A program made the position numbers and the translations under genes. A stretch of DNA of 64,000 nt from a virus (taxonomy: Duplodnaviria > Heunggongvirae > Uroviricota > Caudoviricetes): positions 131,216 through 195,215 of the IMG/VR virus record IMGVR_UViG_3300049049_000146. The stretch is one strand, 5' to 3'. Shown here piece by piece: positions 5,922 through 58,800 of this stretch. The notes beneath the pieces were generated by a model. It made no database searches and was not told where the DNA came from. It saw only the letters and a list, made by a program, of their open reading frames with translations. The number at the start of each line of letters is the position of its first letter. Position 1 is the stretch's first letter.

Positions 5922-6161
5922 TCACGTCACCTCGATAACAGTTACACGCGTACCTCTGCGCTTCGGGCGCATCTCCCGAACACGCTTGGCGGCGTTCTTC
6001 GCGCCTTCCTTGGTCTGGAACCAGAAGGTTACGTCGCGGGTGCCATCGAAGCAGTAGCCGTGGCCGTCAGCGCTACGACGAACGACCTTGGCAATTCGGT
6101 CGTCATAGCTGTGATCGTAACCTGGGTACGTGACTGAGACGGTGTAGTACGGGTATTTCAC
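5922..6161 (-). CDS. hypothetical protein
   Basis: GTG start overlapping the upstream TGA. Confidence 0.6.
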   Translation of the reverse strand: MKYPYYTVSVTYPGYDHSYDDRIAKVVRRSADGHGYCFDGTRDVTFWFQTKEGAKNAAKRVREMRPKRRGTRVTVIEVT

Positions 6162-6406
6162 TTGACTTCCTCCACTGCAACGGCCTCCCACACGTGGGTG
6201 CGCAATTCCACACGGTGCTTCTTGCCGTCAGGACCCTTGACAAAAAGAATGAGCGGATCAGGCGTTGCGTCGTCGGCCCATTGCTCCGCAACAGTCGTTA
6301 CGAGACTGAGCAACCACGTCTTCGGCGGCGCGACATTCGGCTTCTCAGGCTCAGCGTCCTTTGCCTGCCAGACCTTCCAGGTCTTCTTGCGCGTGGTCTT
6401 CTTCAT
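6158..6406 (-). CDS. hypothetical protein
   Basis: ATGA tiling. Confidence 0.6.
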   Translation of the reverse strand: MKKTTRKKTWKVWQAKDAEPEKPNVAPPKTWLLSLVTTVAEQWADDATPDPLILFVKGPDGKKHRVELRTHVWEAVAVEEVK

Positions 6407-6678
6407 CGCAGTTCCTTCGTGCTGTCGAAGATCATCACGCCCTCGCCTTCGACCTCAAATCCAATGAGCGTCGAGCAGGGGTCAACCGTCTTCTCCCCGA
6501 TGACAGTATCGTTGAACGTCTCGCAGAAGCGGAACTTGTCGGACATCTTGAACGGTTCATTTCGAACGATTCGGACGTCGCGCCACTCACGCAGCTGTGA
6601 TTCCTCAGGGCAATAGTAAACCTGGTCCTCGTGACGGAACCAGTACCAGCCCTGCTTGAAGTCGATGTCTATGGCCAT
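6403..6678 (-). CDS. hypothetical protein
   Basis: Tiling. Confidence 0.6.
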   Translation of the reverse strand: MAIDIDFKQGWYWFRHEDQVYYCPEESQLREWRDVRIVRNEPFKMSDKFRFCETFNDTVIGEKTVDPCSTLIGFEVEGEGVMIFDSTKELR

Positions 6679-42580: not shown

Positions 42581-42661
42581 TAGGGACGGAGGGACTCGAA
42601 CCCTCAAAGGTGCGGGGTTTAAATCCGCTGGCTGTGCCTTTCGCCGTTAACCCACGTCCCC
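42581..42661 (-). tRNA. tRNA-Leu(TAA), atypical: short variable loop, enlarged D-loop
   Basis: GGGGACG/CGTCCCT acceptor, A73, loop TTTAAAC, T-arm GAGGG-TTCGAGT-CCCTC. Confidence 0.75.
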
Positions 42662-51350: not shown

Positions 51351-51451
51351 GAAGGGCACGCCCCTAGTGGGATTCGAACCCACACCACTCGTACTAAGCT
51401 CTCTTGTTAGAGAACGCGCTTCCCTAGCGACCCGGGGCCTCCGTGCCATTC
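51351..51451 (-). ncRNA. anticodon-less tRNA-like RNA with extended acceptor helix (Y-RNA candidate)
   Basis: GAATGGCAC..GCCCC/GGGGC-GTGCCCTTC; D-like CGCT-AGGGA-AGCG; GTTCTCT-AACA-AGAGAGC; T-arm GTGGG-TTCGAAT-CCCAC. Confidence 0.65.
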
Positions 51452-51653: not shown

Positions 51654-51662
51654 AGAAAAAGT

Positions 51663-51798
51663 GCGGCAACAGAAGGTGATGAGTTTAGTTTTACGCGCTC
51701 TACCAGGCTGAGCTATCCCCTGATAAAGCCAGGGGAGCAGGATTTGAACCTGCGACCTCGTCCTCCCAATGGATGTAAACCCATCGAGCATTTGCCGC
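51663..51798 (-). ncRNA. yrlA: YrlA-type Y RNA (circularly permuted tRNA mimic)
   Basis: Terminal stems GCGGCAA/TTGCCGC and GATGGGTTTA/TAAACTCATC enclose T-arm (GCAGG-TTCAAAT-CCTGC), loop-closed acceptor (TCCCCTG-GCTTTAT-CAGGGGA) and D-arm (GCTC-AGCCTGGTA-GAGC), in T-AS-D order. Confidence 0.88.
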
Positions 51799-52970: not shown

Positions 52971-53270
52971 TTACCATGCTAGACCATCCTTCAACCGATC
53001 TAGCGTCTTCTTCGAGTAGGTGAATTTGTCTCGCGACCAACCTTCACTTGCCGGGTACTCTCGGATGAATCGAATGATCTGATTCTCCTCAAAGGTGAAT
53101 CGGGTCTCACGATTCCTTCCGTACCTGACCCAGGAGTTGTCTTCCTGATTGAAGCCGTTCAGGGCCCACAACCGGGAAAGCTCGGCCTTGATTTTCGTCT
53201 TGAACGCTTCGGTGCGAAACGCCATGTGAACCTCAGAGCAAGGGCAGGTGCCCGACGAAGGGGGCAGCAA
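52971..53270 (-). CDS. hypothetical protein (start probably near 53225)
   Basis: ORF track. Confidence 0.5.
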   Translation of the reverse strand: MLPPSSGTCPCSEVHMAFRTEAFKTKIKAELSRLWALNGFNQEDNSWVRYGRNRETRFTFEENQIIRFIREYPASEGWSRDKFTYSKKTLDRLKDGLAW

Positions 53271-53601
53271 CGTCCTTAGGCATCGGCTGAAGCCCGAGTA
53301 CCGTTACAGTGTTCGGCTCTACGTGATTTCTACCTTCGTCGACTACCACGGAGGCAAAGTACCAGTGCTTATCAAGCTGGTCTTTTACCGCGAGTAGCTC
53401 TTCGAGGTTCTTAGCCTTCAACACGATCTTGGCGTAGCTGGTGACCTCCCATTCCTCTACCCACTTGACGTGGTCCGTCGACCCTTTCTTGTCGACGAGG
53501 CGTAGAGCGAGGTGCACTCCGTGACCGACCTGCGCCGCAATCTTTCCCTTCGGCATACCTAGATCGGTACGCACGATGATGTATTGAACGATTTCGGACA
53601 T
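53233..53601 (-). CDS. pth2: peptidyl-tRNA hydrolase type 2
   Basis: QYIIVRTDLGMPKGKIAAQVGH, KIVLK, V.DEGRN.V.PNTVTVLG. Confidence 0.92.
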   Translation of the reverse strand: MSEIVQYIIVRTDLGMPKGKIAAQVGHGVHLALRLVDKKGSTDHVKWVEEWEVTSYAKIVLKAKNLEELLAVKDQLDKHWYFASVVVDEGRNHVEPNTVTVLGLQPMPKDVAAPFVGHLPLL

Positions 53602-57015: not shown

Positions 57016-57286
57016 CGACTTCTCCTGCAAGGAAGCGTTTCATGCGCTGAAGATGCTCATTCAGCGCGATGACGTTCTTTACAGAAGCGCAGGCAGCCCC
57101 GAGGGGCTCGGCACGCTCGGCGTACAGGACAAGCGTCTCAGGAGGGGAAACCTCTCCGGTTTCCTCATCGAAATCCGCAGTCACGTCAGCGGTAATGGAA
57201 ACGTAACGTGAAGGACGCGAATCACTGAAAACAAGAAGAGAGGTCCCGTCGGGACCTTCCGAGATCGAACACTTGAATTCAGACAT
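56978..57286 (-). CDS. hypothetical protein
   Basis: Start moved to MSEFKCS, just after the tRNA-like RNA. Confidence 0.55.
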   Translation of the reverse strand: MSEFKCSISEGPDGTSLLVFSDSRPSRYVSITADVTADFDEETGEVSPPETLVLYAERAEPLGAACASVKNVIALNEHLQRMKRFLAGEVDVHGEPEPIQSR

Positions 57287-57289
57287 TGA

Positions 57290-57405
57290 GGCCGACTCCT
57301 TGGATTCGAACCAAGCCCATCTTCCGGTTCGTAACAAACGGTCCTAAGTTCTAGGCAGCCAGCATGGCTGGCTCTTCGGAAGTGCTCACCTGGAGCCGAG
57401 TCGGC
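57290..57405 (-). ncRNA. 116-nt multi-hairpin tRNA-like RNA
   Basis: 8-bp GCCGACTC/GAGTCGGC, D-like GCTC-CAGGT-GAGC, T-arm CTTGG-TTCGAAT-CCAAG, several short hairpins between them, no 7-nt U33 anticodon loop. Confidence 0.7.
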
Positions 57406-57408
57406 ACG

Positions 57409-57834
57409 TTACACTTCCCACATACGCTCGCGGACGATCTCGATTAAGTCATCGAGAATTTCCGTGTGCGCCTGGGCCTTGATTGCCTCTTCAAACTTCC
57501 GGGAGCCAACTGCACGCTGCTCCTGCTTCTGCGCCGTCTTCTTCATCTTCTGAAGACGAGTGAGGAACTCCTTACGCATGCGTGTCGTTGCGAAGAAGTC
57601 GATCTCGAACTCGTGCGCAACGACCGCACGAACCAGCACGAGATTGTCCTTCGAGAAGATGACACTGACATGGTCGCCTCGCTGAGGGGGACGACGCAGA
57701 CCGTCTGAATGCCAAACGGTCCCGTCAAAGTCGAACTTCTCCATTCCGATACGAACAACGCCACGAAGCGTAGCGGAGTTGTATTTCGAAACGATGCCCT
57801 TCTTCGCGATCGTCTTCACATCGATGTGGTTCAC
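57409..57834 (-). CDS. hypothetical protein with OB/cold-shock-like N-terminus
   Basis: GIVSKYNS...GVVRI...P.RGDHVSV. Confidence 0.6.
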   Translation of the reverse strand: MNHIDVKTIAKKGIVSKYNSATLRGVVRIGMEKFDFDGTVWHSDGLRRPPQRGDHVSVIFSKDNLVLVRAVVAHEFEIDFFATTRMRKEFLTRLQKMKKTAQKQEQRAVGSRKFEEAIKAQAHTEILDDLIEIVRERMWEV

Positions 57835-58421
57835 AGGAATTCCTCCGCCTTATCGCCGTAACGCTCCTTCACCTTCGCTACCCAAGCCTGATTCTTGACC
57901 TTGAACATGAAGGGAGGAGTCCATTTCTTGTTCGAGGGGATCTTGCAGACAACACCCTCGAACGTCTGCCCGGGAAACTCACCAGATCGGATCTGGGACT
58001 CGATCTCCTTGTTGAAGTTCCCCTGGTGGATGAGCTTAGCCGCGTCAGGAAACAGATCGATGAAATCGCGCACATCAAGCAGACCCTGCTTGTACACGTC
58101 GACATCGATCAGCTTGACCACGTGGGGCTCATCCTCGTGCAGACCCGCAAACGAATTCGGTCCGTAGAATTCGAAGAAACAGGTGACCTTCTGCCACCGC
58201 TGCTTTTCGAAAATCGGCGCAAGCGCATCCGTCTGTTCGTGGATGAGCTTGATTGCCTCTCCGAGCAGACTATCGGGGCCGATCAGAACCTTACGCGACC
58301 CGAATTTGTCGAACCCCTTCTTGCGGGTCCACTCAGCACGAATATTTGAACCGTCGAGCTTTTCGAACATGTAGCAGGGGCCGTAGCGGCAATCCCTACT
58401 AATCGTCGGATACTGCTTCAT
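57831..58421 (-). CDS. minimal ATP-dependent RNA ligase (Rnl2-like adenylation domain)
   Basis: Motif I FEKLDGSNIR; FGSR; FFEFYG; IDV; EGVVCK; FKVK. Confidence 0.8.
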   Translation of the reverse strand: MKQYPTISRDCRYGPCYMFEKLDGSNIRAEWTRKKGFDKFGSRKVLIGPDSLLGEAIKLIHEQTDALAPIFEKQRWQKVTCFFEFYGPNSFAGLHEDEPHVVKLIDVDVYKQGLLDVRDFIDLFPDAAKLIHQGNFNKEIESQIRSGEFPGQTFEGVVCKIPSNKKWTPPFMFKVKNQAWVAKVKERYGDKAEEFL

Positions 58422-58800
58422 CTGAACTCACTGACGGATCGCCATTCTCAGCGATCCACTTCTCTTCTGCCCGAGCACAGTATTGTGAGCAGCCGCGGTC
58501 GCAGACCGCGCCTTCATTCGGGCACTCAGATTCCAGGTCAGGACGAGTGGGCGGGATCTTGAACGTCGCAATAAACTCATCGAAGCAACGCTCACAGATG
58601 TCGAACTCCCACTTCGTCATATCACGGGGCGAGGGCCAACCCCACGTCTTACGTACCGCGAGGTACGAGTAATCGCTGGCGTGCGGCTTATACCCCTCTG
58701 CCATCTCGTAAGGGTTACAGGGCTTAGCGCAGCGATTGCAGATGACCTCGTCGATGACCGTCTCCTCAACGGTCTTCGTAACCTTGTGCGTCTTCAGCAT
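58399..58800 (-). CDS. hypothetical Zn-binding protein
   Basis: ICNRC...FDICERCF. Confidence 0.6.
   Translation of the reverse strand: MLKTHKVTKTVEETVIDEVICNRCAKPCNPYEMAEGYKPHASDYSYLAVRKTWGWPSPRDMTKWEFDICERCFDEFIATFKIPPTRPDLESECPNEGAVCDRGCSQYCARAEEKWIAENGDPSVSSDEAVSDD

What the first reader, a model, noticed from the sequence alone, without database searches (positions are those of the whole stretch)
57290..57405. 116-nt tRNA-like RNA with an 8/5 acceptor/T-stem and about four hairpins in place of the anticodon arm
Seen: perfect 8-bp closing stem GCCGACTC/GAGTCGGC, D-like arm GCTC-CAGGT-GAGC and canonical T-arm CTTGG-TTCGAAT-CCAAG. Between them lie CTT-CCG-AAG, GCCAGC-CAT-GCTGGC, CCTAG-AAC-TTAGG and a CCGTTTG-TTA-CGAACCGG hairpin. 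There is no 7-nt anticodon loop with U33. It fills the intergenic gap near the second RNA ligase gene. The 8/5 geometry recalls tRNA-Sec, but there is no UCA loop, and it is far too short for tmRNA. It could be an unknown tRNA-mimic ncRNA, an anticodon-nuclease decoy, or an intron-containing tRNA processed by a phage ligase.
Basis: seen in the sequence. Interest (0 to 1): 0.72.

Follow-up and report, generated by a model that had tools for sequence, protein, structure and literature searches.

The report
tRNA-shaped phage RNA antisense to ribosome
A giant phage carries a conserved gene for a tRNA-shaped RNA that has no anticodon; in its place is a short sequence complementary to helix 69 of the large ribosomal RNA, which suggests an unreported kind of phage RNA aimed at the host ribosome.

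Summary
On the minus strand at 57405..57290 lies a 116-nt RNA gene with an 8-bp acceptor stem, a small D arm and a canonical T arm. It has no anticodon loop. It is not a decoding tRNA, tRNA-Sec, tmRNA, YrlA-type Y RNA or an intron-bearing tRNA: each failed a defining test.

It is under strong selection. It is 96-97% identical in two relatives whose flanking genes differ at 20-50% of third codon positions. Three more distant jumbo-phage homologues keep the fold, with compensatory changes in 20 of 37 pairs.

All six copies follow a conserved pair of genes: a small Cys-rich protein and a minimal Rnl2-like RNA ligase.

The only invariant part of the inner domain is a 12-nt block plus a 6-nt block. 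These are antisense to 23S rRNA helix 69 and its 3' flank (about A1918-G1929 and C1909-A1913). The same module is the core of other small intergenic RNAs in unrelated phages, once per complete genome.

My best reading is a tRNA-scaffolded antisense or guide RNA against 23S rRNA. It may act as a splint for the neighbouring ligase or block subunit joining. Pairing in vivo is inferred, not shown. I found no Rfam family or paper describing this. The scan had noted one of the other carrier RNAs before (e1-1862816) without the rRNA link.

The parts
57290..57405 (-). whole 116-nt tRNA-shaped RNA gene (5' end at 57405)
   Evidence: Fold. Homologues. Covariation. Single copy in the genome.
57398..57405 (-). 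acceptor stem, 5' strand (8 nt); pairs with 57291-57298
   Evidence: 4 of 8 pairs have changes on both sides in the 6-sequence alignment. The eighth pair is kept in 5 of 6 sequences.
57384..57396 (-). reduced D arm (4-bp stem, 5-nt loop holding GG)
   Evidence: All 4 pairs covary. GG is present in the loop of every homologue (alignment A4).
57377..57382 (-). anticodon-like stem, 5' strand; pairs with 57321-57326
   Evidence: 5 of 6 pairs change on both sides.
57357..57373 (-). hairpin 1 of the inner domain (7 bp, variable loop)
   Evidence: The loop varies among close relatives. The stem position covaries, but the sequence is not conserved in distant homologues.
57337..57348 (-). 12-nt long arm of the conserved module, antisense to 23S rRNA about A1918-G1929 (3' strand of helix 69 plus linker)
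   Evidence: Invariant in all six homologues. It is an exact antisense match to the E. coli 23S gene. Numbering comes from the oligonucleotide in PMC3241648.
57329..57335 (-). short arm of the module, antisense to 23S about C1909-C1914; also to 16S about 1495-1503 when 57336-57337 are included
   Evidence: Invariant in the homologues. blastn-short matches.
57299..57315 (-). T arm (5 bp, 7-nt T loop with U54 U55 C56 R57 A58)
   Evidence: The only T-loop change among close relatives is purine to purine at position 57.
57296..57301 (-). Shine-Dalgarno-like hexamer of the downstream gene, buried in the T stem and acceptor 3' strand
   Evidence: Read from the sequence. It lies 9 nt before the ATG at 57286.
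57831..58421 (-). 196-aa minimal RNA ligase (adenylyltransferase domain only)
   Evidence: PF09414 at 24 bits and PHROG 548 at E 4e-13. The ligase motifs are invariant in 26 homologues. The AlphaFold model has pLDDT 92.5, and its best fold match is T4 Rnl2 bound to a nicked duplex.
58399..58800 (-). 133-aa Cys-rich (two CxxC) protein; its gene overlaps the ligase start
   Evidence: Homologous to the gene before the ligase in L025 and L033 (42% and 36% identity).
57409..57834 (-). 141-aa ORF of unknown function between the ligase and the RNA (present only in the window's own lineage)
   Evidence: It is not homologous to the genes after the RNA in L025 or L033.

Best explanation
This is a real gene for a stable, non-decoding, tRNA-shaped RNA. 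The acceptor stem, D arm and T arm form a tRNA-like L. That shape would let RNase P and the 3' tRNA-processing enzymes cut the RNA out of the polycistronic transcript, would stabilise it, and may dock it where tRNAs bind. The anticodon loop is replaced by a branched domain. The conserved working part of that domain is a two-armed sequence antisense to 23S rRNA helix 69: 12 nt against about A1918-G1929 and 5-6 nt against about C1909-C1914. A free spacer faces the modified loop residues 1914-1917. I propose that this module base-pairs with 23S rRNA, in free 50S subunits, immature particles or broken rRNA. Two outcomes seem most likely. (a) It holds the two sides of a break around helix 69 together as a splint, so that the Rnl2-like nick-sealing ligase encoded just upstream can reseal it. 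(b) It masks helix 69, which forms bridge B2a, and so controls subunit joining. Shown here: the fold, its selection, the ligase linkage, and the sequence complementarity with its recurrence in other phage RNAs. Inferred: expression, processing, pairing in vivo, and which outcome follows.
For: Selection: the RNA is 96-97% identical in L009 and L010, while third codon positions of flanking genes are only 0.47-0.81 identical. All changes among these close copies fall in loops or convert G-C to G-U.

Fold: across six sequences 98% of pair cells are paired and 20 of 37 pairs change on both sides. None of 500 shuffles reaches this, and slid controls give 31-45% pairing.

Core: the 12-nt and 6-nt blocks are invariant while every stem around them covaries.

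rRNA link: the core matches the E. coli 23S gene on the opposite strand (21 of 22 for the L035 version). The longest exact rRNA match of every carrier RNA is at this one site. By my estimate, a chance match of an 18-nt motif with this spacing to about 9 kb of rRNA (both strands) has a probability near 1e-6.

Recurrence: the module is found in 12 further IMG/VR contigs in about five other sequence contexts. Ten of 13 hits lie outside long open frames. A reversed-pattern control gave 4 hits, all inside open frames.

Extension: in several contexts complementarity extends beyond the searched pattern along the 23S sequence, to 15 and 17 nt.

Orientation and copy number: the module is antisense to rRNA in the local direction of transcription in all contexts. 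It occurs once per complete phage genome. The phage holds no complementary partner.

Ligase link: the order Cys-rich protein, ligase, RNA is kept in lineages whose ligases are only 59-61% identical and whose other neighbours are unrelated. The ligase fold is closest to T4 Rnl2, which seals nicks in duplex RNA (PMC3884662).

Precedent: a synthetic antisense PNA against helix 69 inhibits E. coli growth (Kulik 2017, as cited in PMC7038079).
Against: Pairing with rRNA is inferred from sequence only.

Mature helix 69 is a folded, modified hairpin at the subunit interface, so invasion by an RNA may be slow.

Part of the long arm is paired inside the RNA itself in the window's lineage (hairpin 2).

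The short arm ends in an A that mismatches 23S, and it fits 16S about 1494-1503 as well or better (8-9 nt), so the second target is ambiguous.

The other carrier RNAs have no ligase gene next to them.

The class I homologues were found by looking beside ligase genes, which biases the linkage. Three related ligase loci lack the RNA (L024, L028, L006-8).

The alignment used for pair counts was fitted to the model structure.

The control scan shows that about 4 of the 13 pattern hits could be chance.
Confidence: 0.5

Rival explanations
1. It is a protein-binding tRNA mimic or decoy. The conserved block is a recognition site for a phage or host protein (for example the neighbouring ligase or Cys-rich protein, or a tRNA- or ribosome-directed toxin), and the complementarity to rRNA is incidental.
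For: The fold is tRNA-like and lies in an RNA-repair and tRNA island with Ro60, Y RNAs, PTH2 and three ligases. The linkage to two protein genes is conserved. The block is partly structured.
Against: A protein site would not be expected to match 23S antisense over 12-17 nt, nor to extend along the rRNA sequence by different amounts in different scaffolds. The same block occurs in phages without the ligase next to it.
Confidence: 0.2
2. It is a cis-acting leader. The structure hides the ribosome-binding site of the downstream gene and opens on a signal, possibly on binding free 50S subunits, so it controls translation rather than acting in trans.
For: The Shine-Dalgarno-like hexamer at 57296-57301 lies inside the T stem and acceptor stem, 9 nt before the ATG. 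In the T4-like carrier RNAs the hairpin also sits just before a ribosome-binding site.
Against: The downstream gene is replaced or highly diverged in L010 (31% identity) and unrelated in L025, L032 and L033, while the RNA is kept. One carrier class ends in a terminator. A full tRNA-like T loop and D loop is not needed for simple sequestration.
Confidence: 0.1
3. It is a Ro60-associated Y RNA, one more of the many Y RNAs of this phage.
Against: The YrlA model RF02553 gives no match here even at E 10, while it finds the phage's real Y RNAs. The arm order is that of a normal tRNA, not permuted. The GNCGAA(N)G motif that all this phage's Y RNAs carry at their 5' end is absent.
Confidence: 0.05
4. 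It is an intron-containing tRNA that is cut and rejoined, perhaps by the phage ligase, into a decoding tRNA.
For: Huge phages have oversized tRNA genes with conserved inserts (Lak phages, 10.1101/356790). ARAGORN at a lowered threshold proposes a 43-nt intron. A ligase gene is adjacent.
Against: I enumerated every single-segment excision for a 5- or 6-bp stem. None gives U33 with a purine at 37. ARAGORN's own proposal has A33 and assigns Ser without a long variable arm. The 'intron' holds the most conserved bases. There is no bulge-helix-bulge. At about 50 nt it is too small for a group I intron and gives no Rfam hit. The phage already has tRNAs for all 20 amino acids.
Confidence: 0.03
5. It is a DNA-level relic: a captured piece of 23S rDNA or a homing-endonuclease target-like site. 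This rDNA region is the I-CeuI site and an intron hot spot.
For: The matched rDNA stretch overlaps the I-CeuI recognition sequence.
Against: Only the left half of the I-CeuI site is present. Orientation relative to transcription is the same in all contexts. The flanking helices covary at the RNA level. The jumbo-phage copies have no endonuclease gene beside them. The block stays invariant over lineages in which neutral sites are saturated.
Confidence: 0.05
6. It is a decayed tRNA pseudogene hit by an insertion.
For: It has a tRNA-like frame without an anticodon.
Against: Purifying selection is far stronger than on neighbouring synonymous sites. Compensatory changes are seen. The insert has no other copy in the genome.
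Confidence: 0.02

Closest known systems
YrlA-type bacterial and phage Y RNAs (Chen et al. 2014, PMC4201824; Rfam RF02553)
   Same: A non-decoding RNA that joins a tRNA-like D/T/acceptor module to a second functional module. They are encoded in phages with Ro60, among tRNA genes.
   Different: YrlA is circularly permuted: its ends form the Ro-binding stem and its acceptor is closed by a loop. Here the ends form the acceptor stem. There is no GNCGAA(N)G motif and no RF02553 match. The second module is antisense to rRNA, not a Ro60 site.
tmRNA
   Same: A tRNA-like domain whose anticodon arm is replaced by a functional domain that acts on the ribosome.
   Different: This RNA is 116 nt against about 260-400 nt. 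ARAGORN finds no tmRNA. The short reading frame ending Leu-Ala-Ala-stop in hairpins 1-2 is not kept in L009 or L010. No conserved G3-U70 or A73.
Oversized tRNA genes with 'enigmatic introns' in Lak megaphages (10.1101/356790)
   Same: tRNA-like genes in huge phages with highly conserved internal inserts.
   Different: There, excision was predicted to give a normal tRNA with an anticodon. Here no excision does, and the insert carries an rRNA-antisense block.
Guide or splint RNAs for Rnl2-family ligases (kinetoplastid editing ligase REL1 with guide RNAs; T4 Rnl2 on nicked duplex RNA, PMC3884662)
   Same: A nick-sealing RNA ligase of the Rnl2 fold next to an RNA that could supply the complementary strand. 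It would work like a splint.
   Different: No phage splint RNA is known, and the target here would be rRNA. The ligase is a bare adenylyltransferase domain of 196 aa. Nothing has been tested biochemically.
rRNA-directed guide RNAs (C/D and H/ACA snoRNAs) and synthetic anti-helix-69 PNA (Kulik 2017, cited in PMC7038079)
   Same: A short antisense to a conserved functional rRNA element. The PNA shows that helix 69 can be reached and that binding it is inhibitory.
   Different: snoRNAs are archaeal or eukaryotic and carry box motifs that are absent here. The PNA is artificial.
T4 stable RNAs species 1 and 2 (rnaC, rnaD) in the tRNA cluster (recalled from memory, not checked here)
   Same: Small stable RNAs of unknown function encoded among phage tRNA genes and processed with them.

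Membership tests
canonical tRNA (Rfam RF00005 / ARAGORN) | Cloverleaf with a 7-nt anticodon loop, U33 and a purine at 37 | tested here: not met
   No ARAGORN or RF00005 hit. None of the hairpin loops and no excision product has U33 and R37 (and my enumeration).
canonical tRNA (Rfam RF00005 / ARAGORN) | Acceptor stem, T arm with the U54 U55 C56 R57 A58 loop, and GG in the D loop | tested here: met
   These are conserved in all six homologues.
tRNA-Sec | UCA anticodon, long variable arm, 6-bp D stem, 8/5 acceptor/T geometry | tested here: not met
   No UCA loop. The variable loop is 5 nt (1-2 nt in homologues) and the D stem is 3-4 bp. The eighth acceptor pair is kept in only 5 of 6 sequences.
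tmRNA | Detected by ARAGORN; conserved tag reading frame; alanine identity pair G3-U70 | tested here: not met
   ARAGORN -m finds nothing. The short frame is not conserved. The G-U pair is present in L009 and L010 but not in the window or the distant homologues.
YrlA / Y RNA (RF02553) | Match to the covariance model; permuted order 5' motif-V-T-acceptor loop-D-3'; GNCGAA(N)G near the 5' end | tested here: not met
   No match at E 10, while the phage's own Y RNAs score 28-58 bits. The arm order is normal and the motif is absent.
intron-containing tRNA (archaeal/eukaryal type or group I) | Excision restores a canonical anticodon loop; bulge-helix-bulge or a group I core | tested here: not met
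   and my enumeration. No group I or other Rfam hit at E 10. The insert is only about 50 nt.
Rnl2-like RNA ligase (neighbouring gene) | Covalent nucleotidyltransferase motifs I, III, IV and V; Rnl2-type fold | tested here: met
   KxDG, FEFxG, EGVVxK and KxK are invariant in 26 homologues. The best fold match is T4 Rnl2 (2hvr, E 6e-8). The Pfam score of 24.1 bits is below the 27-bit cut-off.
Rnl2-like RNA ligase (neighbouring gene) | C-terminal domain needed by T4 Rnl2 to bind nicked duplex | tested here: not met
   The protein is 196 aa and covers only the adenylyltransferase domain. The family is about 200 aa throughout.
antisense or guide RNA to 23S rRNA helix 69 (proposed new kind) | Contiguous complementarity to a conserved rRNA site, kept while the scaffold varies | tested here: met
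antisense or guide RNA to 23S rRNA helix 69 (proposed new kind) | Physical pairing with rRNA in infected cells | not testable with these tools
   No read data were available.

The most novel reading that the evidence does not exclude
The RNA is the first natural guide for a phage nick-sealing RNA ligase. A tRNA-shaped splint docks on the 50S subunit, pairs with both sides of helix 69, and lets the adjacent minimal Rnl2-like enzyme (with its Cys-rich partner) reseal 23S rRNA cut by a host or rival nuclease. A variant is that its two arms pair with 23S about 1918-1929 and 16S about 1494-1503, the two sides of intersubunit bridge B2a. In that case it would be a phage RNA that directly governs subunit joining.
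Probability: 0.2. Interest if true: 0.95.

Novelty: categorically new. Interest (0 to 1): 0.8.

Why it matters
Phages are known to carry tRNAs, Y RNAs, tmRNAs and RNA-repair enzymes. I found no report of a phage RNA directed by base-pairing at ribosomal RNA, and no Rfam family for it. If the pairing is real, three things follow:
- It would reveal a new way for viruses to repair, protect or throttle host ribosomes.
- It would give the long-sought physiological partner for Rnl2-type nick-sealing ligases, whose natural substrates are uncharted (PMC5397189).
- It would explain why a 12-nt block is identical in phages of very different base composition: the target, helix 69, is nearly universal in bacteria.

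It also shows that 'anticodon-less tRNA-like' genes in huge phages can be carriers for other functional modules. The hypothesis is directly testable with standard RNA-RNA interaction and ligation assays.

Tried and rejected
1. tRNA, tmRNA and Rfam scans found nothing.
2. YrlA membership was rejected.
3. Intron excision was rejected (plus my enumeration).
4. A tmRNA-like tag ending Leu-Ala-Ala-stop across hairpins 1-2 was rejected. One-base loop changes in L009 and L010 move the stop and change the C-terminus.
5. There are no paralogues in the genome and no close paralogue among the 38 phage tRNAs.
6. BLAST of the element against GenBank phages found only T-arm matches to ordinary tRNAs, for example RsoM2USA.
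7. Pattern scans built on the anticodon-like stem and T loop gave only chance coding hits in viral, metagenome and genome collections.
8. The flanking 141-aa and 102-aa proteins have no family, PHROG or atlas lead.
9. No promoter or terminator adjoins the RNA.
10. Whole-RNA duplex energies against sliding rRNA windows were too noisy to discriminate. Helix 69 ranked first or second for 9 of 10 RNAs but not for the window's own copy. I rely on exact complementarity instead.
11. GenBank phage BLAST with the short module returned mostly contaminating 23S genes. Longer carrier RNAs gave no GenBank phage match.
13. The literature searches I ran turned up no description of a phage RNA antisense to 23S or helix 69.

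Full report
**What is there.** The window is part of a complete 423,825-bp phage genome with terminal repeats. It carries 38 tRNA genes, nearly all on the minus strand in a 30-kb island. It also carries Ro60, several YrlA-like Y RNAs, a PTH2 peptidyl-tRNA hydrolase and three PF09414-type RNA ligases. The finding lies in this island on the minus strand, 57405 down to 57290. The predicted fold has:
- an 8-bp acceptor stem and one linker base;
- a 4-bp D stem with a 5-nt loop that holds GG;
- a 6-bp anticodon-like stem;
- a 5-nt variable loop;
- a textbook T arm and one discriminator base.

In place of an anticodon loop, the 6-bp stem closes a junction of three hairpins. The RNA fills its intergenic gap to within 3 nt on each side. 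The Shine-Dalgarno-like hexamer of the next gene lies inside its 3' strand.

**What it is not.** ARAGORN and Rfam do not recognise it, even at E 10.
- Y RNA: the YrlA model finds the phage's real Y RNAs but not this RNA. Those Y RNAs share a 5' GNCGAA-type motif and a permuted arm order, and this RNA has neither.
- Intron-bearing tRNA: no removal of one internal segment gives a 7-nt loop with U33 and a purine at 37. ARAGORN's low-threshold 'intron' proposal has A33 and a Ser anticodon without a long variable arm.
- tmRNA: a short frame ending Leu-Ala-Ala-stop is broken by loop changes in relatives.
- Repeat or pseudogene: there is no second copy in the genome and no close tRNA paralogue.

**Selection and fold.** Homologues of the flanking 141-aa protein led to two syntenic contigs, L009 and L010. 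There the RNA is 96-97% identical, while third codon positions of six neighbouring genes are only 0.47-0.81 identical. The few changes lie in loops or turn G-C into G-U.

A covariance model built from these three sequences then found three distant homologues, L025, L033 and L032. They lie in other jumbo-phage contigs (the L025 record is 392 kb; L033 and L032 are known only from 17-39 kb fragments), each directly after a homologue of the 196-aa ligase. Over the six sequences 98% of pair cells are paired and 20 of 37 pairs change on both sides. No shuffle reaches this, and slid controls give 31-45%. The alignment was fitted to the model, so the counts lean towards it, but the margin is large. 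The acceptor stem, D stem, anticodon-like stem, hairpin 1 and T stem all covary. Hairpin 2 is not kept in the distant homologues. Hairpin 3 never varies.

**The conserved core.** Every stem changes, yet one stretch is invariant. It is a 12-nt block at 57348..57337, a spacer of 1-4 nt, and a 6-nt block ending at 57329.

A pattern scan for this core in IMG/VR returned 13 stretches. One is L025's record. The other 12 fall into about five unrelated sequence contexts, several of them AT-rich. Examples:
- In four T4-like freshwater phage contigs the core sits in a short hairpin, followed by a second covarying domain.
- In four other contigs it is followed by an intrinsic terminator.

Ten of the 13 hits lie outside any long open frame. 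A reversed-pattern control gave four hits, all inside open frames. So a few singletons may be chance, but the intergenic families are not. Each complete genome checked has exactly one copy. Rfam has no family for these loci.

**Link to rRNA.** A literature search for the core string returned papers on the I-CeuI site and on 23S rRNA around U1939. BLAST of one carrier RNA against E. coli genomes hit the 23S gene at 21 of 22 positions, on the strand opposite to the rRNA. Numbering follows a published oligonucleotide complementary to C1914-C1961 (PMC3241648):
- the 12-nt block pairs with A1918-G1929, which is the 3' strand of helix 69 plus the linker after it;
- the short block pairs with C1909-A1913 (to C1914 where a G precedes it), the 5' strand of helix 69;
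- the free spacer faces C1914 to U1917.

From general knowledge, these loop residues include m3-pseudouridine 1915, which cannot form a Watson-Crick pair. That would explain why the spacer is unconstrained.

In every carrier RNA the longest exact rRNA match is at this one site. In some contexts complementarity runs on along the 23S sequence beyond the searched pattern, to 15 and 17 nt. In all contexts the module is antisense to rRNA in the local direction of transcription. The target is nearly identical in Klebsiella, Listeria, Staphylococcus, Acinetobacter and Salmonella 23S genes. This can explain why phages of very different composition keep the same block. The phage itself has no complementary partner.

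One ambiguity remains. The short arm ends in an A that mismatches 23S. Together with the spacer it is complementary over 8-9 nt to 16S about 1494-1503 in the jumbo-phage copies. From general knowledge, that 16S segment lies next to helix 69 in the 70S ribosome, at bridge B2a. I cannot decide between the two targets for the short arm.

**Link to the ligase.** The window lineage and the L025 group share three features in the same order: a Cys-rich protein of about 125 aa with two CxxC pairs (42% and 36% identity), the ligase (59-61% identity), and the RNA. The genes on either side are unrelated, and the window lineage has one extra ORF between ligase and RNA.

The ligase keeps the lysine-adenylate motif and the other nucleotidyltransferase motifs. 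Its confident model (pLDDT 92.5) is closest to T4 Rnl2 bound to a nicked duplex, then to other RNA ligases. Rnl2-type enzymes seal nicks in duplex RNA, and their natural substrates are not known (PMC3884662, PMC5397189).

Caveats apply. I found the distant RNAs by looking beside ligase genes. Three related ligase loci lack the RNA. The other carrier RNAs have no ligase beside them.

**Reading.** Shown here:
- a conserved, covarying, single-copy tRNA-shaped RNA gene without an anticodon;
- an invariant core antisense to helix 69, shared with other phage RNAs;
- stable linkage to a minimal Rnl2-like ligase.

Inferred: the RNA is cut out by tRNA-processing enzymes, and its core pairs with 23S rRNA. 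Pairing would either splint a break for the ligase or mask helix 69 and so affect subunit joining. An artificial antisense to helix 69 inhibits E. coli growth (PMC7038079), so the site is reachable. I put about 0.5 on the rRNA-antisense reading as a whole and about 0.2 on the ligase-splint version. The main rival is a protein-binding tRNA mimic whose match to rRNA is incidental (0.2).

**Novelty.** The papers searched and Rfam 15 hold nothing that describes a phage RNA antisense to 23S rRNA, or a tRNA-like scaffold carrying such a module.

Noticed in passing
L038:2290-2405, L039, L040, L041 (alignment A3): T4-like freshwater phages carry a conserved RNA of about 105 nt. It has a hairpin with the same helix-69-antisense core (17 nt complementary to 23S) and a second domain with compensatory changes. 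There is one copy per complete genome, and the flanking genes differ.
   Followed up: partly
L035:5855-5945 (also L037, L043, L046): Another carrier of the module, in AT-rich phage contigs. The core matches 23S antisense at 21 of 22 positions, loop included. It follows a stop codon and ends in an intrinsic terminator.
   Followed up: partly
window 57329-57337 (minus strand): The short arm plus spacer is complementary over 9 nt to 16S rRNA about 1495-1503 (the 1492R primer site). L025 and L044 show the same match, and L033 has 8 nt shifted by one base. The true second target is therefore unclear.
   Followed up: partly
window 57296-57301 and 57284-57286: The ribosome-binding site of the downstream 102-aa gene is buried in the RNA's T stem and acceptor stem. 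Excising or folding the RNA must affect that gene's translation.
   Followed up: no
window 58399-58800 (minus strand): A small protein with two CxxC pairs overlaps the ligase start and is conserved before the ligase in L025 and L033. It has no Pfam family. It may be an RNA- or zinc-binding partner of the ligase.
   Followed up: partly
window 42581-42661 (minus strand): Rfam calls a tRNA here (42.7 bits) that ARAGORN does not report.
   Followed up: no
window 51359-51438 and 51660-51798 (minus strand): ARAGORN reports a 'tRNA-???' with a 4-nt anticodon, and there is a 50-bit YrlA-like match just upstream of Ro60. More YrlA-like matches lie among the tRNA genes at genome positions 196-203 kb. 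This was already covered by another report of this scan.
   Followed up: partly
window 53233-53601 (minus strand): A phage-encoded PTH2-type peptidyl-tRNA hydrolase (Pfam E 2e-31) lies in the tRNA island.
   Followed up: no
L025:5542-5615: The related 392-kb phage has a tRNA with a CUA anticodon (an amber suppressor, called 'Pyl' by ARAGORN) just upstream of the Cys-rich protein, ligase and RNA module.
   Followed up: no
L028:1405-3171 and 6001-6612: In another lineage the ligase homologue (62% identity) lies 3 kb from a Ro60 gene but has no helix-69-antisense RNA in the 9 kb fetched.
   Followed up: partly
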